NCBI GenBank assembly: GCA_024696885.1
Contig: JAILGI010000038.1
Location: 1-41,953, forward strand
Origin: Bacilli bacterium
GTDB taxonomy: Bacteria; Bacillota_I; Bacilli_A; RFN20; CAG-826
DNA: 41,953 nucleotides
Direction: 5' to 3'
Of the stretch, positions 4,422 through 36,631 are shown piece after piece. The notes under the pieces were generated by a model. The model was not told the DNA's origin. It saw only the letters and a list, made by a program, of their open reading frames with translations, and made no database searches. Numbering within the stretch: the stretch's first letter is position 1; every line of letters begins with the position of its first letter. The translations under genes were made by a program, and so were the position numbers.

Positions 4422-4423
4422 TT

Positions 4424-5920: not shown

Positions 5921-5922
5921 TT

Positions 5923-7144: not shown

Positions 7145-7479
7145 AACAGGAAGAATTTAAAGATTTAAAAGAACTAAAAGATGAACAAAACCCATTCTCT
7201 AATCTCTATGAATTAGAAAGTGGTGATACCTTTTATATGGAACCTGTTTTCTATACCCAATTAAAAGGTTTTAAAGATCATTATCCTGAGCAATACGCAC
7301 GTATTATTAAAGAGGTAATAGAGCTAGTGAAAAAGAACCATCGTGTCATTTTTACTGGTAACTATGAATGCCCCTTAACAAATAAAGAAGGATATATCTA
7401 TTTAGAAATAACGGATGTAACTGATCCATTAAAAATATTCGTGGAAGATAAAAGCCGCGGATCAGATTATGGAGATTAA
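7141..7479 (+). CDS. Hypothetical protein
   Basis: 112-aa ORF with ATGA overlap on the rlmH stop; followed by a terminator. Confidence 0.75.
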   Translation: MKQEEFKDLKELKDEQNPFSNLYELESGDTFYMEPVFYTQLKGFKDHYPEQYARIIKEVIELVKKNHRVIFTGNYECPLTNKEGYIYLEITDVTDPLKIFVEDKSRGSDYGD

Positions 7480-7481
7480 AA

Positions 7482-7505
7482 AAATCGCACGTGTATGTGC
7501 GATTT
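7482..7505. terminator. Bidirectional intrinsic terminator
   Basis: AAATCGCAC-gtgtat-GTGCGATTT flanked by A and T runs, between convergent genes. Confidence 0.8.
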
Positions 7506-7510
7506 ATTTT

Positions 7511-8554: not shown

Positions 8555-8635
8555 TTGAATACCTCACTTTGCTTGTATATTGTATGGTATAAGGTTCTAT
8601 TTTACAAATAGATTTTTATAAGGGTCTAATATTCG

Positions 8636-8663
8636 TTGATTTTCTTTTGCTTTTTGATAGAAT
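8636..8663 (+). promoter_or_regulatory. SigA-type promoter of ssrA
   Basis: TTGATT-16 nt-TAGAAT with extended -10 TG, about 20 nt upstream of the tmRNA. Confidence 0.65.
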
Positions 8664-8684
8664 TATTCCGCAAATAGCACAAGT

Positions 8685-9081
8685 GGGGTCGTACTGGTTT
8701 CGACAGGGATGTGCTAGGCTCTAACTGCAGCCGGTTGGTCACCGTGATAACCAAAAGAAAAATAACTGACAACAGTTATATGAGAGCTCCTAGAGCTCAA
8801 TCACTCTGCTTAGCTTAATTTAAGCACTCGACATAGAGTTCCGACGCTACGCGCCGGGCAGAGCATCCTCCAGGGTTTTAGCCTTTCACGCCTGGTCAGG
8901 GTGTCATACCAAAAGGATAATTATTGTTTGAAGGCAAATGGAACAATAATGAAATTAGAATTAGCCTCGCATGTGAAGTGAGTCGATATACAAAGCATGT
9001 TAAATAAAAATATCGTCTAAGCTGTAGACGTTATTGAAGAGCCATCTTTGGACAGGAGTTCAATTCTCCTCGGCTCCACCA
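8685..9081 (+). ncRNA. ssrA: tmRNA
   Basis: 5' GGGGTCGTACTGGTTTCGACAGG; 3' T-arm AGGAGTTCAATTCTCCT plus CGGCTCCACCA; G3:U acceptor pair; tag frame 8768-8818 after ATAACT. Confidence 0.96.
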
Positions 9082-9087
9082 AAATAA

Positions 9088-9679
9088 TGAAACTTCCCCC
9101 AAAATTTTGCCCAAATCAGGGTAAAATGGAAGGGGGTTTTATTTATGCCAGACAATACTCTTAAATACACCCGAGCGGAAAAACTCAAAATCGTCAAAGA
9201 ACATGTTGATGATGGTTTGTAATACGATGAATTATCAAAAAAATATGGTTTGGCAACTTCTACAATCAAATATCAAGTTCGCTTATATTTAGCGCATGGC
9301 GATTCCATCTCACTAGCGATATTGCAAAGCGATATGGGATGGCAATATCAAATGCAAAAATATCATGACAAATTGGAAGAATTAAAGATAATTCAATCAA
9401 TGTCTAGAAAAGGAAATTGCTTAGATAACTCTCCAACTGAGAACTTCTTTGGGCGAATGAAAGAAGAAATGTTTTATGGTAAAGAGCATTTATATAAAAC
9501 TATATCGCAGCTTGAGGAAGCAATTATTCGATACATCGAATATTACAATAAAAAAAGAATTGTTGTTAAACTAGGTATGAGTCCATATCGATACCGATTA
9601 TCTTTACAAAATAATTGTAATCTAGTTTAATGTAGGCAAGAGTTAATACCCATTGGGCAAAAGAAATGGGGAAGGTACA
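9088..9679 (+). mobile_element. Internally deleted IS3/IS150-family insertion sequence (592 bp)
   Basis: TG...CA ends with imperfect inverted repeats (TGAAACTTCCCCCAAAATTTTGCCCAA vs revcomp TGTACCTTCCCCATTTCTTTTGCCCAA); transposase remnant inside. Confidence 0.88.
9145..9630 (+). pseudogene. IS3 transposase pseudogene (OrfA HTH joined to OrfB C-terminus)
   Basis: MPDNTLKYTRAEKLKIV... has TAA at 9220; the same frame continues into QSDMGWQY and SMSRKGNCLDNSPTENFFGRMKEE. Confidence 0.88.
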
Positions 9680-9687
9680 AGAACCTT

Positions 9688-9716
9688 AAAAGCGGCGTAA
9701 GTCGCTTTTTTATTTC
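9688..9716 (+). terminator. Intrinsic terminator, probably the original ssrA terminator
   Basis: AAAAGCGGC-GTAA-GTCGCTTTT followed by a T run. Confidence 0.8.
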
Positions 9717-9723
9717 TTAAACG

Positions 9724-9754
9724 AAAAAAGCCAAGGCTAATTTTCACCTTGGCT
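9724..9754 (-). terminator. Intrinsic terminator of the LRR protein gene
   Basis: AGCCAAGG...CCTTGGCT stem with a T-tract on the minus strand. Confidence 0.75.
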
Positions 9755-9782
9755 CATTCTAATAAATTAGAATCATTAACGA

Positions 9783-11672
9783 CTATTTCCAAATAACTTG
9801 GAGATTATCGTAATGATATGGATCGTGCCAGCTAGCAATAGTTACTTCTGCTAAAGCTTCATCCGCAAAATCAACAGTTCTATTGTGAATTTGTTCATTT
9901 GATGGGAATGCTGTGATTGCAGCAGCATCAACTCCACTCTTCATTCTTAAGATAATGAAGCAGTTTTTGTCTGTTGGAACATTGATTGTGTATTTGTAAT
10001 CAACTGGTGCGTTGTGATCATAGTAGAAAGCTCCTGATGCGTTATCGCCTTGTGTCCAAGCCCAAACTGCAAACCATGCACCATCTACATCGAATTCAGC
10101 GCTGGATTGAATGGTAAGTGTATCAGACCACACTCTTGGAGCGTCGTTTGATCCAACTCTGTGCCAGAATCCATCTGCGTGTTCAGGTGCGTCAACAGCT
10201 GGTTCATTTTCTGAATAGAAATAGAATTTAACATTTTGAGAATCCATTGTCTTGGAATCTGCCCAGTCTTCTGACCATGAATCTAATGGTTCGGTTGCTT
10301 CGAAGAACACTCTTGCGCCATCTCCGAGTTGGCCTAAACCTCTTGCGTCAATAATAGTGTTTGCTGGGAGGACTAAGTGTCCTTCGAAATTTCTTAATGG
10401 ATTCCAATAAAGTTTAACAGCACCGGATCCATTGAATTGAATGTCATAAAGTTTTTCACTGTATGATAAAGCATAACTATCAAACGCTAATTGATTTGTA
10501 TTTTGTAAAATTAAGGTTTCAAGGTTAGCAGTTTCTCTCATTGAAGAATCATGAAGTCTCACAACTTCAGCAGGAACTGTAAATGATGTTCCAGCTCTCT
10601 TTGATGGATATTTATAAAGAACAGTTCCATTATCTGCGTAGAGAATATTATCAACAACTGTGAAATATCCTTCGTCATAATCGTCTTCAATAGCAATAGT
10701 TGCTAAATTTTCCATATCGTAGAATGTGTAATAGTCAAAATTGTATTGATAATCACATGCGCGTTTTGGAAGTGTGAGAGAGGTTAAGGCTCTACAACCT
10801 CTGAATGCCCCACTCATTGAAATATTTCCTGTTCCACCAGCTTCGAATGTGACAGTAGCAATATTGTCACAATCATAAAACGCATCCCTCATTTCTGAAA
10901 TTGTATTAGGAATGGTTACTGATAATAAGGAATCTTCATCTTCGAAAGCGTAATCGTTGATTGCAGTAACGTCTAAACCATCAACTTGTTTAGCGATAAC
11001 GGCGTTTTCTAATGAATGATTGTCTAAACCTAATACTACGGCGTGGTCTTCAAGTTTTCTATATTTGATGCCATCAACAACCTTATATGGGTTAGTTCCA
11101 GATTCACATGCGTTACCGTATTTAATAACGAATTGTTTAATATATGGTGCAGAATATGCGTTACCACTGGTAACTAAAACATAATTTGGATGGTCACCTT
11201 CAAAATCGTATTCATATGAAGGATTAATTGTTAATTGCTTGATGCCAACATATTCGATAACACCAGCATTTTCAAATCCCCATTTGATGTAGAATGTGCC
11301 ATAACCAGTAATCGTGATGGAATTCATGGAACGAATCTCATTTTCTCCACCAGCTTCGTATGGGTTGCAAATGTAACCGACTTCATTTTGATCGATGTAA
11401 ACTGCATCGTCGCCTTCGCTGTATCTAGCGTTGACATAAGCAAAACTTACATCGTTTTGAAGTTGGTCTGTTTTGGCTACAAAGCTTCCACTTACAGGAT
11501 TCTCTGTTTCTGTTGTAATGTCAGTGTCTTCAACTGTGATTGAGTAGAAATCATCAGTACCAGTTGTTCTACTGAACATATCGGATCCACGATTCATTGA
11601 TACTAACGATACAACAAGCGTGGAACATGCTGTGATAGTAACCAAACTAAGAAGATAAGCTCTCTTGTTCAT
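9783..11672 (-). CDS. Secreted/surface BspA-type leucine-rich repeat protein with a possible C-terminal carbohydrate-binding module
   Basis: Signal-like N-terminus; VTAINDYAF, SVTIPNTI, AFRGCRALTSLTLP and YFTVVDNILY repeats. Confidence 0.8.
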   Translation of the reverse strand: MNKRAYLLSLVTITACSTLVVSLVSMNRGSDMFSRTTGTDDFYSITVEDTDITTETENPVSGSFVAKTDQLQNDVSFAYVNARYSEGDDAVYIDQNEVGYICNPYEAGGENEIRSMNSITITGYGTFYIKWGFENAGVIEYVGIKQLTINPSYEYDFEGDHPNYVLVTSGNAYSAPYIKQFVIKYGNACESGTNPYKVVDGIKYRKLEDHAVVLGLDNHSLENAVIAKQVDGLDVTAINDYAFEDEDSLLSVTIPNTISEMRDAFYDCDNIATVTFEAGGTGNISMSGAFRGCRALTSLTLPKRACDYQYNFDYYTFYDMENLATIAIEDDYDEGYFTVVDNILYADNGTVLYKYPSKRAGTSFTVPAEVVRLHDSSMRETANLETLILQNTNQLAFDSYALSYSEKLYDIQFNGSGAVKLYWNPLRNFEGHLVLPANTIIDARGLGQLGDGARVFFEATEPLDSWSEDWADSKTMDSQNVKFYFYSENEPAVDAPEHADGFWHRVGSNDAPRVWSDTLTIQSSAEFDVDGAWFAVWAWTQGDNASGAFYYDHNAPVDYKYTINVPTDKNCFIILRMKSGVDAAAITAFPSNEQIHNRTVDFADEALAEVTIASWHDPYHYDNLQVIWK

Positions 11673-12064
11673 TTGTACTTCTTGCTATTAGCCATCCTAG
11701 CAAACGCTCCTTTTAATAAAAAATGGGCTAAACTTAAAATAAACTTAAGCGGAATGTTATATGGCCATTTGATAAGTGACCATAGCAAAACATTTAATAC
11801 ATTATAAAATACTTTTACTTAATTTGAGAGTTTTTTATTAGAAATATGCAAATATATAACATCGACAAACAACAAAATAAAAATTTATTTATAAATAAAT
11901 AATTGTTTTGCAGTAGTGGTGCATTTAAATCGAATTATTAGATTTTGAAGATAGATGACTTTGTGCTTTTATTTATTTCATTGACTGTTCAAATTTTAAG
12001 ATACATATTGAAAAATGAACACATAGTGTTAATATAATCTTGTTTAAACAAGGAGATAACTAAA

Positions 12065-13633
12065 ATGACAGTTTATTCAGGTCAAATATTAAGCGTAAAC
12101 GCAAATGATGATGTATTTAAATATCTCGTCGAAGATAAGGGAAAAATCGTTTTCGTGGGAAATGAGCTTCCTGAACAATATAAAAATGCAAAAGTCGTGG
12201 AATTAGGTGAAAAAGTTTTAACTCCTACATTCTGTGACTCCCATCAACACTTCGCCAGCTTCTCAATGTTCAACGCTGGACTTAACGTTATGGATTGTGA
12301 ATCTAACGAACAAATGATGGAAGAAATCAAAAAATTCGTCGCAAAAAGTAAGAATAAAACCCTTCTCGCTTTTGGTGCTTCCCCATATTCCGTTAAGGAA
12401 AGAGTGCTATTAAGTAGAGAACAATTAGATAAAGTATGTCCAAAGAAACCAATGATGATCGTTAAATACGATGGCCATGCTTGTATCGTTAACTCCGTCT
12501 TATTAAAGAAATTAGATAAAAAATTAAAACCTTTAAGAGGTTACCACCCAGATACCGGTGAAATGAATCAAGAAGCATTCTTTGTTGTTTCCGATTACAT
12601 TTCTAATTCCATTTCTGTCTTTGGTTTATTAAAACAAATGCAACAAGCCGCGGATTTCCAAGCTAAACGCGGTATTGGTTTAATTCACACCGTTTCCGGT
12701 GTCGGTTTCCCAATGAACCTCGATATTACGTTTGAAAAAATCTTTGGCAAATCCTTACAACGCGGTTTGCAATTAAGAGTTTTCTCTCAATCTTTAAATC
12801 CAAAGGTTGCTAAAAAACGTCACTTACCACGTATCGGTGGTTGTTTCGAATGCGCCTTAGATGGCTGCTTTGGTTCCCAAGATGCATCCATGAATGAACC
12901 ATATATCAATGATAAGAACAACTCTGGTGTCCTTTATTATTCCGATGAAAAGGTCACTAACTTCTTAAAGAAAGCCAATAGAATGGGTCTTCAAATTGAA
13001 ATGCATGCGATTGGTGATAAAGCCTTTGATCAAGCCACACGCTGTATGAAAGCCGCTCTTGATGATTTCCCAAGAGAGGATCATAGACATGGTATTATTC
13101 ATGACTGTTTACCAACGGAAGAAGGCATTAAGATTTGTAAGGATTACCACATTCAAATGCCTGTCCAAACCGCTTTTATCGGTTGGAAACAAGAACCAGA
13201 TGAATACTTAGAAGAAATCTTAGGTAAAGAAAGAGCCAATAGACTCAATCCATTAAGAACCTTCTTAAATAATAATATTATGATGTCCGCAGGTAGTGAT
13301 GGTCCATGTACCACACCTGATCCAATCGATTGGATTTATAAAGCCTGTAACCATTCCAATCCAAAAGAATCCTTAACCGCGAAAGAAGCATTAAGAATTT
13401 GTACCTATAATGGTTATTGGACAACATTTGATGAAAAAGAAAGAGGCAGCCTTGAAGTCGGTAAAATCGCCGATATGGTTATCCTTTCTAAAAACCCATA
13501 TGAAACACCAGTTAAAGAATTGAACACCATTAAAGTGGAACAAACATTCTTAGGTGGTGTCGCCTATCAAAATCAAAAACAATCCGTTTTGGGTATGATT
13601 TTTAGAGGCATATTCAACCATCACAAAGTGTAA
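12065..13633 (+). CDS. Amidohydrolase 3 (YtcJ-like)
   Basis: DSHQH, MHAIGDKA, AGSDGP and GSLEVGKIADMVIL; AGGAG SD. Confidence 0.9.
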   Translation: MTVYSGQILSVNANDDVFKYLVEDKGKIVFVGNELPEQYKNAKVVELGEKVLTPTFCDSHQHFASFSMFNAGLNVMDCESNEQMMEEIKKFVAKSKNKTLLAFGASPYSVKERVLLSREQLDKVCPKKPMMIVKYDGHACIVNSVLLKKLDKKLKPLRGYHPDTGEMNQEAFFVVSDYISNSISVFGLLKQMQQAADFQAKRGIGLIHTVSGVGFPMNLDITFEKIFGKSLQRGLQLRVFSQSLNPKVAKKRHLPRIGGCFECALDGCFGSQDASMNEPYINDKNNSGVLYYSDEKVTNFLKKANRMGLQIEMHAIGDKAFDQATRCMKAALDDFPREDHRHGIIHDCLPTEEGIKICKDYHIQMPVQTAFIGWKQEPDEYLEEILGKERANRLNPLRTFLNNNIMMSAGSDGPCTTPDPIDWIYKACNHSNPKESLTAKEALRICTYNGYWTTFDEKERGSLEVGKIADMVILSKNPYETPVKELNTIKVEQTFLGGVAYQNQKQSVLGMIFRGIFNHHKV

Positions 13634-13639
13634 TAAACA

Positions 13640-15406
13640 ATGGATAAAAACACCTTTCTTGTATTAAGAAACTATTTTAAGTACGGCCCTGATTCTTTAA
13701 GAAATGTCGCTAAAAAGACCGGCCTTTCTTTAGGCACGCTTTCTAAAGTTCATAAGCAACTATTAGAACAAAAGTTTATCGACACAAAAGGCATTACTGA
13801 ATTAGGAAAAAAAGCATTAGAACCATATCGTGTGAATAACGCAATTATTATGGCCGCTGGCATGTCCACAAGACTTGCCCCTTTATCCTTTGATAAACCC
13901 AAAGGATTATTTGAAATTAAAAATGAAATCTTAATCGAAAGGCAAATTAAACAACTCTTAGAAGCGGGTATTAAAGAAATCATTTTAGTGCTCGGTTATA
14001 AGAAAGAATCCTTCTTCTATTTAGGGGAAAAATATGGTGTCAAAATCATCATTAATTCCACCTATGAAACGAAAAATAACTGCGAAACACTATATTTAGC
14101 GCGTAATTTCTTCTCAAGAACTTATATCTGTTCATGCGATCAATATTTCATTAATAACCCATTCAATGAGTTTGAATATGAAACCTTCTATACATCCGTT
14201 TTAAATAAAACCGATGTTGTTGAGCCACGCGTATCTTTAGGTACAGGTAAACGCATTATAGGATTTAGAAGTAAGAAAAGTGGTCATATCCTTTTAGGCT
14301 TCTCCTTCTGGAACGAAGAGTTTTCTAAAGCATTTAAAAAGTTATTAGAGGATCATCACGACCTCGGCGATTTTGACCGTGATTTCTGGGAAAACGCATT
14401 TGCGAGAAACATCAATAGCTTACCCCCTATGTATATTGATGAAAGAGAAGTAGGCACCATCTTTGAATTTGATAACTTAAAACAATTACGCGACTTTGAT
14501 GAAAAATACATTGAACACACGACAAGCAAGATCATGCAAAATATCGCCAAAGTTTTAAGATGTAAAGAAGGCGACATTACTGACTTTGCTCCTATTCAAG
14601 AAGGATTAACCAATACTTCTTATACATTTATTGTTAAAGGCAAGAAATATGTCTATAGACATCCTGGTTTAGGAACCACTCAATTCATCAATCGTAAAAA
14701 TGAAGAAGAAGCATTAAAAATAGCCAAGAAAATAAACCTTGATCCATCATTCATTAAGATGAACGCTAAAGAGGGTTGGAAGATATCTTATTTCGTCCCT
14801 AACACAAGAGTGCCTGATTACCACAACTTTGAAGATAGCAAAATTGTAATTCGTAAAATGAAACAATTACATGATGCAAACATCAAGGTGGATTTCGCCT
14901 TTGAGCCATGGTACGACGCATTAAAATATGAAAAACATGTCAAAAAGACACAAGGTATCGATATGCCTGACTTTGAAAAATTAAAGAAGGATATCCATAA
15001 GATATATCAAAAAATCGATAAAGATGGCTTATATGAAAAGAGATTATGCCACTGCGATACCTATCAACCAAACTGGCTCATCAAAGAAGATGATGATGTT
15101 GTTTTGATTGACTGGGAATATTCCGGTTCAGCGGACCCAGGAGTGGATGTCGGTTATTTCATCGTGGATGCGATGTATGATTTTGATGAAGCAAAAAAAT
15201 TTATTAAAGAATATCTACAAGATAAATATTCATTAAAAGAAGAAGAACACTTCATGTCATATGTAGCGATTATCGCTTACTATTGGTTTGTTTGGGCCTT
15301 ATACAAACAATCAATCGGTTCCGTTATGGGTGAAGTTTTATATAATTGGTATTATATGGCGAAGAAATATGCGCAATACGCTTTGAGGACTTATCAATAT
15401 GAATAG
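13640..15406 (+). CDS. HTH + LicC-like cytidylyltransferase + LicA-like choline/ethanolamine kinase fusion
   Basis: SLRNVAKKTGLSLGTLS HTH; MAAGMSTRLAPL..KPK; GLTNTSY, CHCD and LIDWEYSG kinase motifs. Confidence 0.9.
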   Translation: MDKNTFLVLRNYFKYGPDSLRNVAKKTGLSLGTLSKVHKQLLEQKFIDTKGITELGKKALEPYRVNNAIIMAAGMSTRLAPLSFDKPKGLFEIKNEILIERQIKQLLEAGIKEIILVLGYKKESFFYLGEKYGVKIIINSTYETKNNCETLYLARNFFSRTYICSCDQYFINNPFNEFEYETFYTSVLNKTDVVEPRVSLGTGKRIIGFRSKKSGHILLGFSFWNEEFSKAFKKLLEDHHDLGDFDRDFWENAFARNINSLPPMYIDEREVGTIFEFDNLKQLRDFDEKYIEHTTSKIMQNIAKVLRCKEGDITDFAPIQEGLTNTSYTFIVKGKKYVYRHPGLGTTQFINRKNEEEALKIAKKINLDPSFIKMNAKEGWKISYFVPNTRVPDYHNFEDSKIVIRKMKQLHDANIKVDFAFEPWYDALKYEKHVKKTQGIDMPDFEKLKKDIHKIYQKIDKDGLYEKRLCHCDTYQPNWLIKEDDDVVLIDWEYSGSADPGVDVGYFIVDAMYDFDEAKKFIKEYLQDKYSLKEEEHFMSYVAIIAYYWFVWALYKQSIGSVMGEVLYNWYYMAKKYAQYALRTYQYE

Positions 15407-17279
15407 AGAATTGTTTAATCAATTAGTTGCACTAGAAAAAGAAAACAAATTAAATAAAGAACAATTAGAAGCCTTAGAACCATATCGCGTTAAAAGAGCT
15501 ATTATTATGGCTGCGGGTTTTGGTTCACGTATGATGCCTATTACTTTATTCACCCCAAAGCCATTAGTGACAGTCAACGGTGTACGTATCATCGAAACAT
15601 TAATTGAAAAAATCGTCAAAGTGGGTATCAAAGAAATCTATCTCGTAAGAGGTTATTTAAAACAACAATTTGATGTCTTATTAGAAAAATATCCTTTCAT
15701 TAAATTTATCGATAATGATGATTTTGATAAGGAAAACAATATATCAAGTGCGATTAGATTCGCTCATTTATTAGATAACACTTATGTTTGCGAAGCTGAT
15801 TTTGTGGTTCGCGGAGATGATGTTATCACTAAATATCAATATGAATCTAATTATCTAGGAACACCAGTCAAAGAGACTGACGATTGGTGTTATGACGTCG
15901 ATAGTAATGATGTTATCCATAATTATCGTAAAGGCGGTAAAGACTGTTACCAAGCCTTTGGTATTTCCTATTGGAATGAAAAAGATGGTGCATTCCTAGC
16001 TAAAAAGTTATTAGAAATGCACGAAGATAAAAAGAATCGTCAAGAATTCTGGGAAATGTGTTTCTTCTCCATTTATCAAAATGAATTTAACGTCCACGCA
16101 AGAGCGTGCGCTAAAGAATCTATTTTTGAAATTGATTCATTCGATGAATTATGCGCGGTGGATCCATCTCATAGATTAGGTGAAAGAAAGAGAATCGGTG
16201 TTGTAGGCGCTGGTAATATGGGCACCATATTAGCCACCAAGTTCTCCTTAAGCCATGATGTTGCTTTATATGACAACGTCGGTTCTATGAAAAACTGCGT
16301 TGATAACATCATGAATGTGAGAGATGAAGACAACAAGATTACTTATTCGGCAAAAATCAAAACCATTACATCTGATTTAAAAGAATTTGTTTCTTTATCT
16401 GATTATATTTTTATTACCTTCCCTTCCTTCCTTTTTAAAGGATTAGCCAAAGATTTAATTCCTTTATTACATGAAGGACAACATTTAATCTTTATCCCTG
16501 GTAGTGGAGGTGCGGAATTCTATTTTCATGAAGCTCTTAAAAAAGGCGTTACCATTTCTGGTTTACAAAGAGTGCACTGTGTCGCTCGTATATTAGAACC
16601 TGGTAAGTTAGTAAGAGAATCCGGCAAAAAATCACTCTTAAAAGTGGCGTCTATTCCATCTAGTTATAATCACACTGCCTCTATGCTCATTAATGAGTTA
16701 TTTGGTATTAAGGTTCATGAATTAGATAATTACTTAAATATCACCTTAATCAATAGTAATGCAGTGTTACATACATCTCGTTTATATAACCTCTTCCATG
16801 ACTATCATGAAGGAGTTTATTACAGTAAAAACCCATTATTTTACGAATCTTGGAATGATGAAACCTCTATTCTATTAGAGAAAATGGATAACGAATTAGC
16901 ATCCTTATTCCCCATGTTTGAAACCTATGGATTACCAGTGAAAGATATTCCCGGCATTCTCCCATATTATGATTCTGAAACCCCAGAACAAATGACAAGA
17001 AAGATTATTAGTATTGCAGGATTCAAAGGTTTATATTCCCCAATGAAAGAAGTGGAGCCAGGTAAATTCATTCCTGATTTCTCAAGTCGATACTTCACCG
17101 CGGACTTCCCATTTGGTTTAGATATCATCTTAGAGTTCTTAAGACTATTTGAAATGAAGAAAGATAACTGCGAAATGGTGTCATCTTGGTATAAGGAAAT
17201 GATTAAACCAGAATCAGTCTTCTCCTTCAAAGATTTCAACATTAATACAAAAGAAGAACTAATTAATCTTTATAAATAA
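15399..17279 (+). CDS. LicC-like cytidylyltransferase fused to NAD(P)-dependent opine (octopine/nopaline-type) dehydrogenase
   Basis: MAAGFGSRMMP..TPKPL N-domain; from about 16188 VVGAGNMG, NAVLHTSRLY, PLFYESW and SRYFTADFPFGL. Confidence 0.85.
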   Translation: MNRELFNQLVALEKENKLNKEQLEALEPYRVKRAIIMAAGFGSRMMPITLFTPKPLVTVNGVRIIETLIEKIVKVGIKEIYLVRGYLKQQFDVLLEKYPFIKFIDNDDFDKENNISSAIRFAHLLDNTYVCEADFVVRGDDVITKYQYESNYLGTPVKETDDWCYDVDSNDVIHNYRKGGKDCYQAFGISYWNEKDGAFLAKKLLEMHEDKKNRQEFWEMCFFSIYQNEFNVHARACAKESIFEIDSFDELCAVDPSHRLGERKRIGVVGAGNMGTILATKFSLSHDVALYDNVGSMKNCVDNIMNVRDEDNKITYSAKIKTITSDLKEFVSLSDYIFITFPSFLFKGLAKDLIPLLHEGQHLIFIPGSGGAEFYFHEALKKGVTISGLQRVHCVARILEPGKLVRESGKKSLLKVASIPSSYNHTASMLINELFGIKVHELDNYLNITLINSNAVLHTSRLYNLFHDYHEGVYYSKNPLFYESWNDETSILLEKMDNELASLFPMFETYGLPVKDIPGILPYYDSETPEQMTRKIISIAGFKGLYSPMKEVEPGKFIPDFSSRYFTADFPFGLDIILEFLRLFEMKKDNCEMVSSWYKEMIKPESVFSFKDFNINTKEELINLYK

Positions 17280-17281
17280 AT

Positions 17282-17311
17282 AAAAAGCACAAGTTCATCA
17301 CTTGTGTTTTT
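17282..17311. terminator. Bidirectional terminator overlapping the licD stop
   Basis: AAAAAGCACAAGT-tcatc-ACTTGTGTTTTT. Confidence 0.75.
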
Positions 17312-18146
17312 TACTCATATATTCTTTATAACCTTCGGTTAATGAGAATCCTTTGTTGTAATGGTGACCCACCTGCTGCTCAATAGGTGGCAGTTTCATA
17401 TAATCGCCAAAGATACATGTGAGGTAATCATGATATCTTTTCATGACCCTGGCTTGCATGTCTTCAAATTGGACATAGACGAAGTCAGAGAAGATGTCGC
17501 TATCCATAGCCGCTCGTTTAAATGTGTAACCGAATAAATTACCGGATAAAGCGCATTCTTCCATCTTTAATTTCTTCGCGTATTTATCCATTCTCTTATT
17601 TCTAAAATGAGCAATGTCGAATAGGTAAGGAATAGCCACGGCAATATCAATCATAATGTCTTTAAACCATGTTTTCTTTTGTGGTTTTCGCATCAACGCG
17701 GGTAAATAGGAAAGATAGAATTGTCGCCAGATAAATTTGACTTTTTTTGCGCATTTCTCGCGTGGAATTGGCTCTTTGCTCATTCCATCAATCGGGAAAA
17801 TATCAATCCAAACACCGTGATTTATACGATGGTTTTTAAAGTGATCTTCAATAAACGTAGTGGAGGAATCTCTGAGCTTTGCGTATCCATATGTATAATG
17901 TGGATCTGATTTCCACCACTGAATGAAATATGGAGTTCCTTCATATTCTTTTTGAAGTGTTAAATACTTTTCATAATCTTCTCTAGGCATCATGACATCT
18001 ATATCATCATCCCAAGGAATGAAACCTTTATGTCTAATCGCACCTAAGCAAGAACCACCATTGAGAAAATATCTTAAATGGTGTTTTTCACAAACATCAT
18101 GAAAGGCTTTAAAGATAACTAATAATCTCGCTTGTAAATCATTCAT
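17298..18146 (-). CDS. licD: LicD-family phosphotransferase
   Basis: GGSCLGAIRHKGFIPWDDDIDV, WIDIFPID and FGDYMKLPP. ATG 18146 preferred to TTG 18155. Confidence 0.92.
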   Translation of the reverse strand: MNDLQARLLVIFKAFHDVCEKHHLRYFLNGGSCLGAIRHKGFIPWDDDIDVMMPREDYEKYLTLQKEYEGTPYFIQWWKSDPHYTYGYAKLRDSSTTFIEDHFKNHRINHGVWIDIFPIDGMSKEPIPREKCAKKVKFIWRQFYLSYLPALMRKPQKKTWFKDIMIDIAVAIPYLFDIAHFRNKRMDKYAKKLKMEECALSGNLFGYTFKRAAMDSDIFSDFVYVQFEDMQARVMKRYHDYLTCIFGDYMKLPPIEQQVGHHYNKGFSLTEGYKEYMSKKHK

Positions 18147-18186
18147 ATCAATCAAATTATAAACAATTCTGAAAGCGTTTAAAACT

Positions 18187-19380
18187 TTAGAGTTTAACTA
18201 TATCGAGAACCACATCAATCATCTTGAGGAAATCTTGAACGACTAAATATTCATATCTTCCGTGATGATTAGAACTACCAGTTCCTAGATTTGGTGTCAC
18301 TAAACCTCTCTTAGAGAAAGTTGCTCCATCGGTTCCGCCTCTTATCTTAGACATAACAGGAGTTAAACCATTCTTGATTAATGCTTCCTTAGCTTTATCC
18401 ACAGGTCGAGGATCTTTTTGGACATAAGGAAGCATATTGTAATATTGATCTCTTACAGCAACATCAATCTTTGCTTTTGGATATTTCTTTAGTAATAACG
18501 CTGCTTGCTCTTTGATATATTCGCTGCGTTTTAATAAGTTATCATAATCAAAGTCACGAAGAATCATATCTAAATCGCAAACATCGCTAGATCCTTCAAT
18601 GCCATTGATATGCCAATAGCCTTCATCTTCATTGGCATCATATGGTGTTTCCTTTTTAGGGAATGTTTCAATTAATTCATGTAATACTAATAAAGCATTG
18701 ATTAAGGCGTTCTTTCCTTCACCTGGGTGGACAGATACGCCTTCTACGTGAATATGGACTTGTTGTGCGTTGAAGTTTTCAGCATCGATATGACTGATAT
18801 CTCCTCCGTCAATTGTGAAGGCATAGTCAGCGTCCATCTTCTTTAAATCAAAGTGTTTTGGTCCTTCACCGATTTCTTCATCAACGGTGAAACATACGGA
18901 AATGTTATGGTGTTTAATTTCAGGATGGTTATGTAAGTGTTCTAATACACCCATAATAATAGCGATGCCCGCTTTATCATCTGCGCCTAATAAGGTATTG
19001 CCATCGGTAACCACTAAGTCTTTACCAATGTGTTTCTTTAATGCGGGGAATTCTTCACTAGAAAGAACATATTTATCATTTAAATGATAATCCTTGCCAT
19101 CATAATTCTTAATGATTTGAGGATTACAATTGGTGTCAGTGACTTCTAATGCGGTATCAACATGGGCGTTTAAACCAATCTTATCGCCTTCACCTTTTAA
19201 ATGAGCGTAGACGATACCATATTCATCCATATAAGCATCTTCTAAGCCTAATTCCTTTAAATCCTCAACAAGAACTCTGGATAAGTCTTTTTGCTTTTCG
19301 GTAGATGGCGTAGTGCCGGTTGTATCATCCGCTTGAGTGTCAATTTTCGCGTATTTAATAAATCTTTGTACTGGGTCCAT
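18187..19380 (-). CDS. pepT: Peptidase T (M20B tripeptidase)
   Basis: AHVDTA, LLGADDKAG, DEEIG, IRGGTDG and HGRYEY. Confidence 0.95.
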   Translation of the reverse strand: MDPVQRFIKYAKIDTQADDTTGTTPSTEKQKDLSRVLVEDLKELGLEDAYMDEYGIVYAHLKGEGDKIGLNAHVDTALEVTDTNCNPQIIKNYDGKDYHLNDKYVLSSEEFPALKKHIGKDLVVTDGNTLLGADDKAGIAIIMGVLEHLHNHPEIKHHNISVCFTVDEEIGEGPKHFDLKKMDADYAFTIDGGDISHIDAENFNAQQVHIHVEGVSVHPGEGKNALINALLVLHELIETFPKKETPYDANEDEGYWHINGIEGSSDVCDLDMILRDFDYDNLLKRSEYIKEQAALLLKKYPKAKIDVAVRDQYYNMLPYVQKDPRPVDKAKEALIKNGLTPVMSKIRGGTDGATFSKRGLVTPNLGTGSSNHHGRYEYLVVQDFLKMIDVVLDIVKL

Positions 19381-20751: not shown

Positions 20752-22254
20752 ATGCGCGAAGAGAACAAAGCATCTAACTTCAATTTATCACAATTTGGAC
20801 GCGTCCTTGTTTTTGTGGTTCTTGAAGTTTTAGCCTTATTTGCCTCTTCTATTTGGAATTCAATTTACTTATACACAATTGTGAGCATCTTGCTTGTTGT
20901 TCTTGTTATAGCAGTGATGTTCCAACAAGTGAAAAAAGATGGTCTCTCTAATATAGGATTTTTCTTATTCCCCATTCTTGTATATGGTTTTTTATCCGCG
21001 ATAAGTTACCTCTATTTAGATCCTAATTTCGCTTTATCTAATTCCTGGTTCCGTTTTATCGTTCCATTTGGATTAGTGGGCTTTGCTGCTGCGGGATATT
21101 ATATCGCCTCTAATCAGGATTTTAAGATTGGTCATGCCTTATTGGTCATCTATAGTGGTATTGCCTTCTTAACGTTCTTAAACCTTATAGTCACAATGGT
21201 GCAATTTGTGCCTTTTTATACAATTAGATACGCGAATTACTATTTATACTATGATGGTTCGCCATCCCCAGTTCCCGTCTCTGAAATGGCGTATTTCCTC
21301 ACTAATTTCTCATTTGAAGAAGTGTCATTATCTTATTTCACTTTCTATCCGATGATTTTGTTAACCGCCTTCTTACCTTTATCTTTTATTTCTTATAGCA
21401 AACAAAAGAAGACATTCGTAGCCTATCTATCATTTGGCATTTTAGGTTTATTAACCATCATCTTGACAATCAATAAGTTCACTCTCCTTTATTTATTTGT
21501 TATCGCTGTGGTCATAGCCTTAATCAACATCTTCACTAAATTTAATTTAAAAACCAAATGGTTAAAAGTAACCATGAAAATCATCGGCGGATTAGCTATC
21601 GCTGGATTTGTCTTATTATTACTTAACGCTCAAGATAGTGTCTCCACTTTCCGTCTTTCATTCTTAAGAGATTTAACGACTAAGAATGCTTTATTTGATC
21701 GTTTATTTAACTCCAATCGTTTAGTGAGTGGCTATAACGCTATTCTCGATGGAACATTCACTAACGTTAAGATACTTGGTTATCCAATCGCAGGAGCGTA
21801 TCAAAACTTTGGTATGATGACTTGGGTCTTTAACGATTCATCCAATTCCTTCTTCTTTGATTCCTTCTTTGTGTCTGGTTTATTCGGCACTGGATTCCTT
21901 GTCTTTGTCCTTATTATGTGTATCAGACATGTGTTCTTCTATTACATGTATTCAACAGATAAAAAAGAAGATAAAGTATTGGTTATAGGCTTTATTTTAG
22001 TCTCCTTAATCTATTCCTTTATCGCCTTTGATGCGACACCATATGTTTTCTATAACAGTATTGTTCCTTTCTATATGAACAATATCTTCTTTATCATCAT
22101 CTTCTTATTTGGCTATTGCTTATTCAAATCATTGAACTCAAATAGACCAATCGTGGTGAAGAAAGCGATTAAGGAAGAAAAAGAAGGAACACCACTTATT
22201 GTGACTACGACTGAAGAGAAAAAGGAGGAAAAGAAAAATGAAGAAAGTAAATAA
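20752..22254 (+). CDS. Polytopic membrane protein, possibly O-antigen ligase/Wzy-like
   Basis: About 12 hydrophobic segments; large late loop ending SSNSFFFDSFFVSGLFG. Family assignment is tentative. Confidence 0.55.
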   Translation: MREENKASNFNLSQFGRVLVFVVLEVLALFASSIWNSIYLYTIVSILLVVLVIAVMFQQVKKDGLSNIGFFLFPILVYGFLSAISYLYLDPNFALSNSWFRFIVPFGLVGFAAAGYYIASNQDFKIGHALLVIYSGIAFLTFLNLIVTMVQFVPFYTIRYANYYLYYDGSPSPVPVSEMAYFLTNFSFEEVSLSYFTFYPMILLTAFLPLSFISYSKQKKTFVAYLSFGILGLLTIILTINKFTLLYLFVIAVVIALINIFTKFNLKTKWLKVTMKIIGGLAIAGFVLLLLNAQDSVSTFRLSFLRDLTTKNALFDRLFNSNRLVSGYNAILDGTFTNVKILGYPIAGAYQNFGMMTWVFNDSSNSFFFDSFFVSGLFGTGFLVFVLIMCIRHVFFYYMYSTDKKEDKVLVIGFILVSLIYSFIAFDATPYVFYNSIVPFYMNNIFFIIIFLFGYCLFKSLNSNRPIVVKKAIKEEKEGTPLIVTTTEEKKEEKKNEESK

Positions 22255-23083
22255 AAAGATCCTCCTCTTATTCCCCATCTTTATTCTCACAGGATGTGGT
22301 TATGGTTTAAAAGAAGTCTATCCTGGTAATGTTTATAATTCTGTTGATTATAATCTCAACTTCTATAAGGAATGGAATAAGGATTTAAATTACCATGAAG
22401 TGGAAATGGAAAGCGAGAGTCACGTCCTTGATAAAGACGCTGATAAGGTGTTTTTAAGCCCTAATGACGCTTATTTCCCTGATCATAATGATTATGACTA
22501 CGCCGATGATTTAGATTTTAACGATGACACAAGGAGTTATGGTCAAACATTTGCCCTAAGCAAGAGTGAATCCTCCTTCAAATATGGCTATTTATCTAAA
22601 TTATTTGATGGACAAATGTTCTGCCATGGCCGTTATGAATTGGCCCGTGTGCAAATTGGTGAAAGTGGCTTTGCAGCAAAAACCAGTAAAGAATTAAAGG
22701 AATATTCCTATTTTGCGCTTAATTTCAAAGCATCATTAGATTATAGACGCGATGGTGTTTCTACTGGCATTCCCGCTCATAATTCCTCAATTATTTTGAA
22801 GATTAATTTCTACTGTAAAGTTAATAGTTCCACCTATAAACGTGTAGAATTCACCTACCCAATTGAACACGTGAATACAAACTATAGCGAAGCTACAAAT
22901 ATCTATACATTCTTTGGCTTTGACCTTGAAAAATATGATATTAGTAGATGCGCTGGTTACTCTATCGAATATGAACTAGTCCATGATGAATATATTGAAA
23001 GCCATGGAGCGGAGTACACCCCATCGCTTACGCATTGTTTACTTTTATATGAAATGTTTTTACCAGGTTCTACTTGGCATTAA
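22238..23083 (+). CDS. Lipoprotein of unknown function
   Basis: MKKVNKKILLLFPIFILTG-C lipobox; AAGGAGG SD. Confidence 0.8.
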   Translation: MKKVNKKILLLFPIFILTGCGYGLKEVYPGNVYNSVDYNLNFYKEWNKDLNYHEVEMESESHVLDKDADKVFLSPNDAYFPDHNDYDYADDLDFNDDTRSYGQTFALSKSESSFKYGYLSKLFDGQMFCHGRYELARVQIGESGFAAKTSKELKEYSYFALNFKASLDYRRDGVSTGIPAHNSSIILKINFYCKVNSSTYKRVEFTYPIEHVNTNYSEATNIYTFFGFDLEKYDISRCAGYSIEYELVHDEYIESHGAEYTPSLTHCLLLYEMFLPGSTWH

Positions 23084-26174: not shown

Positions 26175-26175
26175 A

Positions 26176-36586: not shown

Positions 36587-36631
36587 AAAATCAGTATACA
36601 AGCATGTCATAAAAAATGATATCATTTTTAT

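What the first reader, a model, noticed from the sequence alone, without database searches (positions are those of the whole stretch)
15399..17279. Cytidylyltransferase-opine dehydrogenase domain fusion
Seen: one uninterrupted 626-aa ORF whose junction (VDPSHRLGERKRIGVVGAGNMG, about 16160-16220) has no stop. The catalytic-type His (NAVLH) and Asp (RYFTAD) are retained. The usual ED reads AD here, which could reflect a different amine substrate. In the upstream paralogue the same C-terminal slot holds a kinase, suggesting modular domain swapping. I do not recognise this architecture as characterised.
Basis: partly seen in the sequence, partly recalled or inferred. Interest (0 to 1): 0.75.

Follow-up and report, generated by a model that had tools for sequence, protein, structure and literature searches.

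The report
Cytidylyltransferase fused to opine-type dehydrogenase
A small gut bacterium has joined a CTP-activating enzyme and an opine-dehydrogenase-type enzyme into one real protein, which most likely helps build a still unidentified phosphate-linked decoration for its surface sugars.

Summary
The 626-aa ORF at 15399-17279 is real and uninterrupted. It joins, end to end, a LicC-like cytidylyltransferase (residues 1-260, "NT2") and an opine-dehydrogenase-family enzyme (261-626, "DH").

The C-domain matches octopine dehydrogenase and CENDH over its full length by sequence and fold. It matches ketopantoate reductase only in the Rossmann half. The His-Asp dyad and Arg are kept, and "TAD" instead of "TED" is family-wide.

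The fusion is rare. I found four sequences (67-92% identical) that form one clade nested among stand-alone DHs.

The context is a Lic-type head-group cassette: amidohydrolase, a LicC/LicA-like fusion, NT2-DH and a convergent LicD. Stand-alone relatives of the DH sit beside LicD or TagF-like transferases in 15 of 20 loci. Aminotransferase-fold or phosphonate genes lie nearby in 7 of 20.

Best reading: NT2 makes a CDP-linked phospho-head group and the fused DH tailors it with NAD(P)H.
- Opine-type N-carboxyalkylation of a phospho-amine: about 0.4.
- Carbonyl reduction as in the pneumococcal CDP-2-glycerol pathway (Gtp1): about 0.35. I could not test this link; it rests on recall.

The scan has flagged the DH-LicD pairing before on other DNA. 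The fusion is new here.

The parts
12065..13633 (+). Amidohydro_3 metal-dependent hydrolase (522 aa), first gene of the operon. Conserved partner of the NT1-kinase/NT2 genes; role unknown.
   Evidence: Pfam Amidohydro_3 2.5e-53. Nearest solved structures are only 'uncharacterized metal-dependent hydrolase' 3icj and 3igh. Orthologues (66-81% identity) sit beside NT1-kinase plus NT2 in 5 of 5 such loci: window, G010, G032, G029, G026.
13640..15406 (+). wHTH + LicC-like cytidylyltransferase (NT1) + LicA-like choline/ethanolamine kinase fusion (588 aa).
   Evidence: Pfam. PDB: S. pneumoniae LicC 1jyk 1.1e-36 (residues 63-288) and LicA 4r77 1.2e-22 (residues 300-576). Orthologues at 47-51% identity follow an EutH ethanolamine permease gene in G004 and G040.
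15385..15389 (+). Shine-Dalgarno-like GAGGA, 9 nt before the ATG of the fusion ORF. The ATG overlaps the upstream stop (TAG 15404-15406), which suggests translational coupling.
   Evidence: Sequence printed; ORF ends.
15399..17279 (+). The finding: a 626-aa fusion protein (NT2-DH).
15399..16178 (+). N-domain NT2 (residues 1-260): LicC-like cytidylyltransferase with a shortened N-terminal wHTH remnant. Conserved blocks AAGFGSR (38), PKPLV (53), EADF (132), EIDS (244).
   Evidence: PDB 1jyk 1.4e-19 over residues 29-250 with these blocks aligned. Positions. About 39 aa of wHTH are missing relative to P0002 and G010.
16173..16190 (+). Fusion junction (residues 259-264, RLGERK), between the end of NT2 (...DPSH) and the first strand of the DH Rossmann fold (RIGVVGAGNMG).
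   Evidence: Alignment with stand-alone NT2 and stand-alone DH proteins. Bridged without an indel by contigs of 3 runs from 2 studies.
16179..17276 (+). C-domain DH (residues 261-626): opine-dehydrogenase-family NAD(P)-dependent oxidoreductase. Motifs and residues: GAGNMG (270), PGSGG (367), GLQRVH (388), H458, R564, D569.
   Evidence: Pfam. Profile against PDB. AF2 model pLDDT 91.9. Foldseek. Invariant columns. Positions.
17298..18155 (-). LicD-family phosphotransferase (285 aa), convergent with the fusion ORF. Presumed to transfer the activated head group to a glycan.
   Evidence: Pfam LicD 2e-48. 52% identical to the LicD directly upstream of the stand-alone DH in G029, but only 29-33% identical to the other LicDs compared. 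Weak PDB match to FKRP 6kaj.
18187..19380 (-). M20-family peptidase/amidohydrolase, upstream of LicD on the minus strand. Membership in the system is uncertain.
   Evidence: Pfam Peptidase_M20 6.5e-15. Not seen next to the DH or LicD in the other loci annotated.

Best explanation
The ORF is a genuine, lineage-restricted end-to-end fusion of two genes that elsewhere are separate neighbours. One is a LicC-like CTP:phospho-alcohol/phosphonate cytidylyltransferase (NT2). The other is a member of an opine-dehydrogenase subfamily that travels with LicD-type phosphotransferases.

Together with the operon's amidohydrolase, the LicC/LicA-like NT1-kinase fusion and the convergent LicD, it builds a CDP-activated phospho-head group and hangs it on a surface glycopolymer.

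Shown:
- The fusion is real.
- The domain families and fold are as stated.
- The catalytic His-Asp dyad and the Arg are retained.
- The cassette is conserved.
- The DH is linked to LicD.

Inferred:
- The kinase phosphorylates an ethanolamine-like amino alcohol.
- NT1 and/or NT2 convert it to the CDP form.
- The fused DH then tailors the phosphorylated or CDP-linked head group with NAD(P)H.
- LicD transfers the product.

The chemistry I commit to for the DH (about 0.4) is opine-type reductive N-carboxyalkylation of the primary amine with a 2-oxo acid. This would give an acidic head group such as N-(1-carboxyethyl)ethanolamine phosphate.

My confidence in the general reading (a real fusion in a LicD head-group pathway) is about 0.85.
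For: The fusion is real and conserved.
-.
- Four distinct fusion sequences at 67-92% identity: P0001, P0002, P0003, G010/L003.
- Their DH parts form one group (SH-aLRT 100), sister to stand-alone P0004/P0005 (quick tree).

Family.
-.
- The dyad and Arg align with OcDH His212, Asp329 and Arg324, whose roles are given in PMC2924402 (passages) and PMC10787698 (passages).

Pathway context.
- Of 20 distinct loci with this DH subfamily, 12 have LicD in the annotated stretch. In 6 of these LicD is directly upstream.
- 3 more loci have a TagF-like transferase.
- 13 have a nucleotidyltransferase gene.
- An Atlas cluster of 71 proteins carries Octopine_DH and LicD in one chain.
- The window's LicD is closest (52%) to a DH-adjacent LicD.

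Leaning towards an amine substrate.
- 7 of 20 loci carry aminotransferase-fold genes. Four of these are NT+Aminotran_1_2 fusions.
- One locus (L016) is a complete phosphonate (2-aminoethylphosphonate, AEP) set: Ppm with the EDKxxxxxNS motif, Ppd, a class V aminotransferase, an NT 40% identical to NT2, and two LicD (motif from PMC6697681).
- NT1-kinase orthologues follow EutH.
- A relative is fused to an Asp/Glu racemase domain (P0234).
- OcDH Glu142, which binds the cationic guanidinium, aligns with invariant Gln390, flanked by invariant Arg391 and His393. This is a basic patch that would suit a phosphate.
- The product type exists in nature: N-[(R)-1-carboxyethyl]ethanolamine phosphate in Proteus mirabilis O-polysaccharide (PMC9630907, figure legend and glossary).
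Against: - No activity has been measured for any member of this subfamily.
- The 'key tryptophan' said to be conserved among opine dehydrogenases (PMC10787698; Trp278 of OcDH) lies in a 4-residue stretch that this family lacks.
- The Glu of the ED pair is Ala.
- The window has no aminotransferase or decarboxylase. In my own genome search (86% complete) I found no EutH and no PEP mutase, so the source of an amine is unclear.
- The amidohydrolase/NT1-kinase/NT2 cassette occurs without any DH match in G026. The DH is therefore optional, and NT2 does not need it.
- Why the cassette has two cytidylyltransferases is unexplained.
- By recall only, the one characterised reductase in a LicD/NT/kinase cassette (pneumococcal Gtp1) reduces dihydroxyacetone. 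Its product, glycerol-2-phosphate, has no nitrogen.
- In L016 a carbonyl reductase making hydroxyethylphosphonate for the Fom1-like CyTase-Ppm would fit as well.
- The earlier scan notes that reach the same opine reading are AI notes, not independent evidence.
Confidence: 0.5

Rival explanations
1. Gtp1-type carbonyl reduction. The DH reduces a small carbonyl compound to the alcohol that is then phosphorylated and CDP-activated: dihydroxyacetone to glycerol, or an aldehyde such as phosphonoacetaldehyde to hydroxyethylphosphonate. The window would then encode a fused version of the pneumococcal CDP-2-glycerol pathway (Gtp1 reductase, Gtp3 kinase, Gtp2 cytidylyltransferase, WchX transferase).
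For: - The window holds all four component types: reductase, kinase, NTP-transferase, LicD.
- Papers name gtp1 a putative glycerol-2-phosphate dehydrogenase, gtp2 a nucleotidyl transferase, gtp3 a phosphotransferase and wchX the glycerol phosphotransferase, in the order wchX-gtp1-gtp2-gtp3 (PMC3493582 table; PMC5581491 and PMC1391919 passages).
- LicD directly before the DH is the commonest arrangement in relatives (6 loci). L006 reads LicD-DH-NT.
- Loss of the opine-DH key Trp and of the Glu of ED.
- The Fom1-like CyTase-Ppm in L016 could use hydroxyethylphosphonate.
- Recalled, not seen here: Wang et al. 2010 showed that Gtp1 reduces dihydroxyacetone to glycerol, and I recall Gtp1 as a PF02317 protein.
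Against: - I could not obtain a Gtp1 sequence or the Wang 2010 paper. Homology between Gtp1 and this DH is therefore untested.
- No pneumococcal-type LicD-DH-NT-kinase-rml locus appeared among the 12 of 399 sampled genomes of the class that gave a match at E <= 1e-20.
- A kinase lies near the DH in only 2 of 20 loci, both of them the fusion.
- Aminotransferase-fold genes lie near it in 7 of 20.
- The racemase fusion P0234 has no place in this scheme.
- The kinase's orthologues sit with an ethanolamine permease, not with glycerol genes.
- The invariant basic residues suggest a charged rather than neutral substrate.
Confidence: 0.33
2. Oxidise-then-aminate route. The DH works in the oxidative direction on a CDP-linked or phosphorylated polyol (for example C2 of glycerol phosphate). 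This makes a ketone that a partner aminotransferase converts into an amino-alcohol head group such as serinol phosphate.
For: Aminotran_1_2 genes or NT+Aminotran_1_2 fusions lie next to the DH in L004, L008, L011, L046, L057 and L058. This is the logic of sugar-nucleotide dehydrogenase/aminotransferase pairs (established knowledge).
Against: - The window and the other three fusion loci show no aminotransferase.
- The Aminotran_1_2 partners may be CobD/FrbH-like decarboxylases rather than aminotransferases (lead from earlier scan notes and from PMC6697681).
- DHAP is freely available, so an oxidation step would be needed only on a CDP-linked substrate.
Confidence: 0.08
3. The fusion is an assembly or frameshift artefact, or a decaying gene, and has no biological meaning.
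For: - The genome is a metagenome-assembled draft: 97 contigs, 86% complete, 3.5% contamination.
- The fusion is rare and has no 50%-identity cluster representative of its own among the best 150 hits.
Against: - Three further, diverged fusion sequences come from other assemblies.
- Contigs of two studies cross the junction without an indel.
- 24 of 28 listed variants lie at third codon positions across both domains.
- All motifs are intact.
Confidence: 0.02

Closest known systems
Lic phosphocholine pathway (LicA kinase, LicC CTP:phosphocholine cytidylyltransferase, LicD transferase) and the related PntC/AEP phosphonate tailoring pathway
   Same: Same logic and same protein families for kinase, cytidylyltransferase and transferase. 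NT1 and the kinase are closest to S. pneumoniae LicC and LicA. NT2 is closest to LicC and is 40% identical to the NT of a Ppm/Ppd/AEPT cluster. PntC and LicC roles are described in PMC6697681.
   Different: The window has an extra opine-dehydrogenase-family domain fused to a second cytidylyltransferase, and a conserved amidohydrolase. No Lic or Pnt pathway described in the papers I searched contains such a dehydrogenase.
Opine dehydrogenases: octopine dehydrogenase of Pecten maximus (3c7a/3c7c/3c7d/3iqd) and CENDH of Arthrobacter (1bg6)
   Same: Same two-domain fold (TM 0.81-0.85), full-length profile match, GxGxxG motif, His-Asp dyad and the Arg that senses NADH.
   Different: About 20% identity. 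Trp278 is absent. Glu142 is replaced by Gln, flanked by invariant Arg and His. TED/FED reads TAD. Genomic context is surface-glycan decoration rather than anaerobic redox balance or opine catabolism. The substrate is unknown.
Pneumococcal CDP-2-glycerol pathway Gtp1/Gtp2/Gtp3 with WchX (serotypes 15, 23)
   Same: Same four kinds of component (reductase, nucleotidyltransferase, phosphotransferase/kinase, glycerol-phosphate transferase), as named in PMC3493582, PMC5581491 and PMC1391919.
   Different: Separate genes there, fused here. Here there is also an extra NT and an amidohydrolase, and the gene order differs. Whether Gtp1 is homologous to this DH is recall only and untested.
Bifunctional CDP-alditol synthases (TarI/TarJ, Bcs1-type reductase-cytidylyltransferase fusions; recalled)
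   Same: Works alike in outline: a reductase and a cytidylyltransferase in one chain, or as a pair, supply a CDP-activated head group for a LicD/TagF-type transferase.
   Different: Different families on both sides. P0001 gives no IspD match at E <= 0.01 and its reductase is not of the SDR or MDR type. It is not a member.
FrbH (nucleotidyltransferase fused to a PLP decarboxylase, FR-900098 pathway)
   Same: Another LicC-family (PF12804) cytidylyltransferase fused to the next enzyme of a small phospho/phosphonate head-group pathway (PMC6697681 discussion). NT+Aminotran_1_2 fusions of this kind sit next to stand-alone relatives of the DH.
   Different: The fused partner here is a dehydrogenase, not a PLP enzyme.

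Membership tests
Opine dehydrogenase family (Pfam PF02317 Octopine_DH; OcDH/CENDH type) | N-terminal Rossmann domain plus helical Octopine_DH domain, matched over full length | tested here: met
   Pfam 71.4 bits (cut-off 30). Profile A1 against PDB: 3c7a 1.8e-26 (positions 3-338) and 1bg6 1.7e-12. AF2 pLDDT 91.9; Foldseek best hits 3iqd/3c7a/3c7d/1bg6, TM 0.81-0.85.
Opine dehydrogenase family (Pfam PF02317 Octopine_DH; OcDH/CENDH type) | Catalytic His-Asp proton-relay dyad and the Arg 'NADH sensor' (OcDH His212, Asp329, Arg324) | tested here: met
   H458, D569 and R564 align with them and are invariant in 23 of 23 family sequences. Roles come from PMC2924402 and PMC10787698.
Opine dehydrogenase family (Pfam PF02317 Octopine_DH; OcDH/CENDH type) | 'Key tryptophan' of the active site (OcDH Trp278) | tested here: not met
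   OcDH YQWY is a 4-residue insertion relative to P0001 and to the family profile. The CENDH Trp aligns with Leu. The alignment in this loop is not certain.
Opine dehydrogenase family (Pfam PF02317 Octopine_DH; OcDH/CENDH type) | Reductive condensation of an amine with a 2-oxo acid | not testable with these tools
   Needs an enzyme assay.
LicC-type cytidylyltransferase (PF00483/PF12804) | Full-length similarity to LicC, with the glycine-rich loop, the PKxL block and the C-terminal EIDS block | tested here: met
   1jyk 1.4e-19, residues 29-250. AAGFGSR/AAGLGTR, PKPLV/PKALV and EIDS/EIDS are aligned. Their catalytic roles are recalled, not tested.
LicC-type cytidylyltransferase (PF00483/PF12804) | Specificity for phosphocholine | not testable with these tools
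   NT2 is 32% identical to NT1 and 40% identical to an NT in a phosphonate cluster. The substrate is open.
Pneumococcal CDP-2-glycerol pathway (Gtp1/2/3 + WchX) | Set of reductase, nucleotidyltransferase, kinase-type phosphotransferase and LicD-type transferase | tested here: met
   Domain content of 13640-18155. Component names come from papers. That WchX is a LicD-family protein is recalled.
Pneumococcal CDP-2-glycerol pathway (Gtp1/2/3 + WchX) | Sequence homology of the reductase to Gtp1 | not testable with these tools
   No Gtp1 sequence was reachable. Wang 2010 is not held.
Pneumococcal CDP-2-glycerol pathway (Gtp1/2/3 + WchX) | Gene order wchX-gtp1-gtp2-gtp3 as separate genes | tested here: not met
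   The window order is amidohydrolase, NT1-kinase, NT2-DH, then a convergent LicD.
TarI/TarJ or Bcs1-type CDP-alditol synthase | IspD-family cytidylyltransferase plus SDR/MDR reductase | tested here: not met
   P0001 has no IspD, SDR or MDR hit at E <= 0.01. A separate IspD-like gene lies at 25494-26174.
   Only the Rossmann part matches: ApbA 266-394 at 26 bits; PDB profile E 0.004-0.009; TM 0.55-0.61 against 0.81-0.83 for OcDH.

The most novel reading that the evidence does not exclude
The DH domain is a phospho-amine (or CDP-amine):2-oxo-acid reductive N-carboxyalkylase. The fusion protein would then make a CDP-activated 'phospho-opine' such as CDP-N-(1-carboxyethyl)ethanolamine, which LicD puts on a surface glycan. 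That would give the first biosynthetic route to carboxyethyl-ethanolamine-phosphate-type decorations. It would also assign a function to a large LicD-associated enzyme family in gut bacteria.
Probability: 0.38. Interest if true: 0.75.

Novelty: new variant of a known kind. Interest (0 to 1): 0.5.

Why it matters
Phosphate-linked head groups on teichoic acids, capsules and lipopolysaccharides (phosphocholine, phosphoethanolamine, aminoethylphosphonate, glycerol phosphate) shape how hosts, phages and antibodies see a bacterium.

An opine-dehydrogenase-type enzyme rides with LicD or TagF-like transferases in many gut and rumen lineages. I found no paper that explains what it does.

A natural fusion to a LicC-like cytidylyltransferase is 'Rosetta-stone' evidence that the two enzymes act on the same small molecule in consecutive steps. 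It also gives a single, expressible protein with which to find the substrate.

If the product is a carboxyalkylated phospho-amine, it would add a new, acidic class of head group and a new reaction type for opine dehydrogenases. If it is glycerol-2-phosphate, the finding is a compact variant of a known pneumococcal pathway.

Tried and rejected
1. Link to pneumococcal Gtp1.
- Paper searches and reads gave gene names and gene order only.
- Wang 2010 is not held.
- The Bentley 2006 supplements are unreadable.
- A sample of 401 genomes of the class (399 scored) gave 12 with a match. None had a LicD-DH-NT-kinase-rml locus.
- The question stays open.

2. PanE/GpsA identity of the C-domain: rejected.

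3. Artefact: rejected.
- X4 has no contig over 16244-16495. X5 has none over about 16916-17250. These gaps say nothing.

4. Proteus link to carboxyethyl-ethanolamine phosphate.
- tblastn against plasmids found only distant relatives (23-28% identity, 7 records).
- The Proteus mirabilis hit lies in a siderophore-type cluster (IucA/IucC, TonB receptor, PLP decarboxylase, PALP enzyme, MFS), not in an O-antigen locus.
- This was a dead end.

5. Expression: no RNA run held the stretch. Nothing can be said.

6. Literature on Octopine_DH together with LicD, capsule or teichoic acid: nothing relevant. All 10 searches are used. The library lacks most subscription papers.

7. NCBIfam gave no specific family for any of the three operon proteins.

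8. The careful tree search did not finish. Only the quick IQ-TREE tree (SH-aLRT) is reported.

9. I did not run the following:
- a full-length fold of both domains (the Atlas's own model has pTM 0.59, so the domain orientation is unsure);
- a 'longer' search for larger fusions. The all-length representative search showed none among its best 150.

Full report
OBSERVATION

The window has one ORF at 15399..17279 on the + strand: 626 aa, ATG start, no stop inside. Pfam finds three parts:
- NTP_transferase at residues 34-149 (1.6e-10);
- Rossmann-type NAD-binding families at 265-394;
- Octopine_DH at 442-601 (1.1e-19; 71.4 bits against a cut-off of 30).

Against solved structures, the N-part is closest to S. 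pneumoniae LicC (1jyk, 1.4e-19, residues 29-250). The C-part is closest to octopine dehydrogenase (3c7a, 7.7e-18) and to CENDH (1bg6).

A GAGGA box lies 9 nt before the ATG. The ATG overlaps the stop of the upstream gene, as in translationally coupled genes.

IS THE FUSION REAL?

Three other fusion sequences exist:
- P0002 (646 aa) and P0003 (626 aa), both covering 100% of the query at 67% identity. They are the only such hits among the 120 proteins listed; the other 117 cover 34-61%.
- The protein on a 4205-base contig of a related genome (L003 = G010; 69-72% identity; cut by the contig end).

The four sequences are 67-92% identical to each other.

Logan contigs from three runs cross the junction with substitutions only: X1 record 2, X2 record 4, and X5 record 20, the last from a second study. 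The only indel listed lies at 17280, after the stop codon. X1-X4 belong to one study and may include the source sample.

Of the 28 listed variant sites inside the ORF, 24 are at codon position 3, three at position 1 and one at position 2. The tool left 11 further rows unshown.

Stand-alone relatives of the N-domain end at ...DPSYK and stand-alone DHs begin MxxIxIIGxGN. In the fusions only 3-4 residues lie between them. This is an end-to-end gene fusion, not an artefact.

HOW COMMON IS IT?

- Among 60 relatives (2 of the same genus, 34 of the same family, 24 of the same order), only G010 has both domains in one frame. The two same-genus genomes have no real match.
- In an all-against-all HMMER search of 1.84 billion cluster representatives, there were 6456 hits at E <= 0.001. 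None of the best 150 spans both domains.
- In a quick maximum-likelihood tree of 43 DH sequences, the four fused DH parts form one group (SH-aLRT 100). That group is sister to the stand-alone P0004/P0005 and lies inside a well-supported clade of stand-alone DHs. The careful search did not finish, and the root is at midpoint only.

So the fusion probably arose once, recently, in a small lineage of reduced-genome Bacilli from animal guts. Organism labels come from record titles and run labels.

THE C-DOMAIN

A profile of 23 family members (A1) matches octopine dehydrogenase over its full length (1.8e-26) and CENDH likewise (1.7e-12). GpsA and ketopantoate reductase match only the first ~100 residues (E 0.004-0.009).

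An AF2 model (pLDDT 91.9) has these Foldseek matches:
- OcDH and CENDH: TM 0.81-0.85;
- staphylopine, yersinopine and pseudopaline dehydrogenases: 0.63-0.66;
- PanE and D-mandelate dehydrogenases: 0.55-0.61.

OcDH residues map onto P0001 as follows:
- His212, Asp329 and Arg324 align with H458, D569 and R564, all invariant in the family. Their roles (His-Asp proton relay; Arg as NADH pyrophosphate sensor; His212 contacting the amino-acid carboxylate) are taken from passages of PMC2924402.
OcDH has TED and CENDH has FED. It is a family-wide trait: Ala at least 90% conserved, Asp invariant.

Two specificity features differ:
- Trp278, which with Glu142 holds the guanidinium group in OcDH, is called a conserved 'key tryptophan' of opine dehydrogenases in PMC10787698. 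It lies in a four-residue stretch that this family lacks.
- Glu142 aligns with invariant Gln390, flanked by invariant Arg391 and His393.

Further invariant basic residues (R461, K535) have no OcDH counterpart. I infer, without a test, that the distal end of the substrate is anionic, for example a phosphate.

THE N-DOMAIN AND THE UPSTREAM PARALOGUE

The upstream 588-aa protein is a wHTH + LicC-like (NT1) + LicA-like kinase fusion. It matches 1jyk at 1.1e-36 and LicA 4r77 at 1.2e-22. NT2, the N-domain of the finding, is 32-33% identical to NT1. It keeps the LicC blocks AAGxGxR, PKxLV and EIDS.

The NT2 module occurs in several architectures:
- stand-alone, 238-312 aa;
- at the C-terminus of NT1-kinase proteins of about 890 aa;
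- behind an ABC permease, about 855 aa;
- fused to the DH.

NT2's nearest relatives outside these include two nucleotidyltransferases (NTs) (motif from PMC6697681):
- the NT of a DH-OCD-NT-permease locus (L012, 46% identity);
- the NT of a complete phosphonate (2-aminoethylphosphonate, AEP) set, L016 (40% identity). L016 carries Ppm with the EDKKGLKKNS motif, a TPP decarboxylase, a class V aminotransferase, two LicD and the DH.

THE CASSETTE

The window reads as follows:
- Amidohydro_3 (12065-13633);
- NT1-kinase (13640-15406);
- NT2-DH (15399-17279);
- a convergent LicD (17298-18155), preceded on its strand by an M20 peptidase.

Amidohydro_3 orthologues (66-81% identical) accompany NT1-kinase plus NT2 in 5 of 5 such loci: window, G010, G032, G029 and G026. 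Their only solved relatives are uncharacterised hydrolases.

NT1-kinase orthologues of 47-51% identity, without amidohydrolase or NT2, directly follow an EutH ethanolamine permease gene in G004 (with LicD) and in G040. The kinase substrate is therefore probably ethanolamine-like.

In my search of the window's own genome (86% complete) I found the following:
- two LicD genes, both in this window;
- no EutH;
- no PEP mutase.

The window's LicD is 52% identical to the LicD directly upstream of a stand-alone DH in G029. It is 29-33% identical to the other LicDs compared.

WHERE THE DH SUBFAMILY LIVES

I annotated 20 distinct loci: the window, 15, and 4 more. The annotated stretches show:
- LicD in 12 loci; directly upstream of the DH in 6.
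- A TagF-like Glyphos_transf without LicD in 3 more.
- A nucleotidyltransferase gene of some family in 13.
- Aminotransferase-fold genes in 7. Four of these are NT+Aminotran_1_2 fusions.
- OCD/mu-crystallin genes in 2.
- A choline-kinase-type domain in only 2, both of them fusion loci.

Three loci are too short to judge (L003, L017) or show no such neighbour (L009).

An Atlas cluster of 71 Bacteroidota proteins carries Octopine_DH and LicD in one chain. A 597-aa representative, P0234, carries the DH with an Asp/Glu racemase domain.

Only 12 of 399 scored genomes of the class have a match at E <= 1e-20, and 6 of those are strong. The gene is patchy and accessory.

MECHANISM

Shown: a LicC-like cytidylyltransferase and an opine-DH-family enzyme are one polypeptide, inside a Lic-type cassette with a LicD that groups with DH-adjacent LicDs.

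Inferred:
- The two domains act consecutively on one small phosphorylated head group.
- The DH is a tailoring step, because the amidohydrolase/NT1-kinase/NT2 cassette exists without any DH match in G026.

For the chemistry I see two near-equal readings.

(a) Opine-type reductive N-carboxyalkylation of a phospho-amine (about 0.4).
- It is favoured by every tool-based line of evidence listed above: the fold, the dyad and Arg, the neighbours that make primary amines, the EutH link of the kinase, the racemase fusion and the basic pocket.
- It is also favoured by the existence of N-[(R)-1-carboxyethyl]ethanolamine phosphate in Proteus O-polysaccharide (PMC9630907 legend).

(b) Carbonyl reduction as in the pneumococcal CDP-2-glycerol pathway (about 0.33).
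- The papers I could read give gtp1 as a putative dehydrogenase, gtp2 as a nucleotidyl transferase, gtp3 as a phosphotransferase and wchX as the transferase, in that order.
- The LicD-DH order is the commonest one in relatives.
- That Gtp1 reduces dihydroxyacetone, and that it is a PF02317 protein, I only recall.
- I could reach neither the paper nor a sequence, and the sampled genomes gave no pneumococcal-type locus.

Unexplained under both readings are the two cytidylyltransferases and the role of the amidohydrolase.

EARLIER NOTES OF THIS SCAN

Several earlier AI notes on other genomes describe opine-DH-type genes tied to LicD and to LicC-like or NT-PLP fusion genes, and propose the same 'phospho-opine' idea: e1-5256712, e1-3892675, e1-2934412, e1-1068084 and e1-5567108. 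I treat them as leads.

I saw the NT+Aminotran_1_2/DH/LicD cassettes myself. I tested no chemistry.

What this window adds is the direct NT2-DH fusion and the amidohydrolase/NT1-kinase/NT2 cassette.

VERDICT

- It is a new, rare fusion variant within a known kind of system: Lic-type CDP-activated head-group decoration.
- It involves an enzyme subfamily whose reaction is unknown.
- Interest is moderate (0.5).
- It would be high if the opine-type head group were shown, and low if the system proves to be a fused CDP-2-glycerol pathway.

Noticed in passing
window 23070-27096 (-): A second head-group module: TupA-like ATP-grasp (23070-23987), Wzx-type flippase (23968-25497), IspD/TarI-like cytidylyltransferase (25494-26174) and a second LicD (26176-27096). 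Glycosyltransferase genes follow at 33180-36625. The whole region looks like a surface-glycopolymer island with at least two different CDP-activated substituents.
   Followed up: partly
window 27179-32092 (+) and 32083-33168 (+): A 1637-aa ORF and the 361-aa ORF after it have no Pfam match at E <= 1e-6. They lie between the LicD module and the glycosyltransferases.
   Followed up: no
window 9250-9630 (+) and 9783-11672 (-): An integrase-core (rve) fragment of 126 aa sits next to a 629-aa BspA-type leucine-rich-repeat protein, just upstream of the cassette. This may be the edge of a mobile or variable region.
   Followed up: no
P0095-P0120, L006:10692-13289, L039:5320-7872: The NT2 module, with a MarR-like wHTH before it, is fused to the C-terminus of a two-domain ABC permease (about 855 aa). 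It follows an SBP_bac_6 binding protein and an ATPase in many clusters. An importer fused to a cytidylyltransferase suggests direct activation of an imported phospho- or phosphonate compound.
   Followed up: partly
L042 (G004 C48) 1635-5696; L040 (G040 C2) 3742-6650: An EutH ethanolamine permease gene lies directly before an NT1-kinase fusion, with a divergent LicD in G004. This looks like a compact ethanolamine to CDP-ethanolamine to LicD decoration cassette.
   Followed up: partly
P0234 (597 aa); Atlas cluster of 597-aa proteins: Other fusions of the same DH family: with an Asp/Glu/hydantoin racemase domain, and with LicD in a Bacteroidota cluster of 71 members.
   Followed up: partly
L063 (Proteus mirabilis record NZ_OL790811.1) 5514-14359: A distant Octopine_DH protein (26% identity) sits in a siderophore-type cluster directly after a PALP (SbnA-like) enzyme. 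The cluster also has IucA/IucC, a TonB receptor, a PLP decarboxylase and an MFS exporter. The DH seems to take the place that an OCD-family dehydrogenase (SbnB) holds in staphyloferrin B synthesis; that comparison is recalled.
   Followed up: partly
L055 (G145 C1) 8533-12168: A lysine-2,3-aminomutase-like radical SAM gene is followed by a distant 399-aa Octopine_DH gene and a glycerate kinase gene. The same arrangement seems to occur in a second genome of that genus (L056 has the same ORF sizes; it was not annotated).
   Followed up: no
window 20752-22254 (+), 22238-23083 (+): Two ORFs (500 and 281 aa) between DegV and the ATP-grasp gene have no Pfam family.
   Followed up: no
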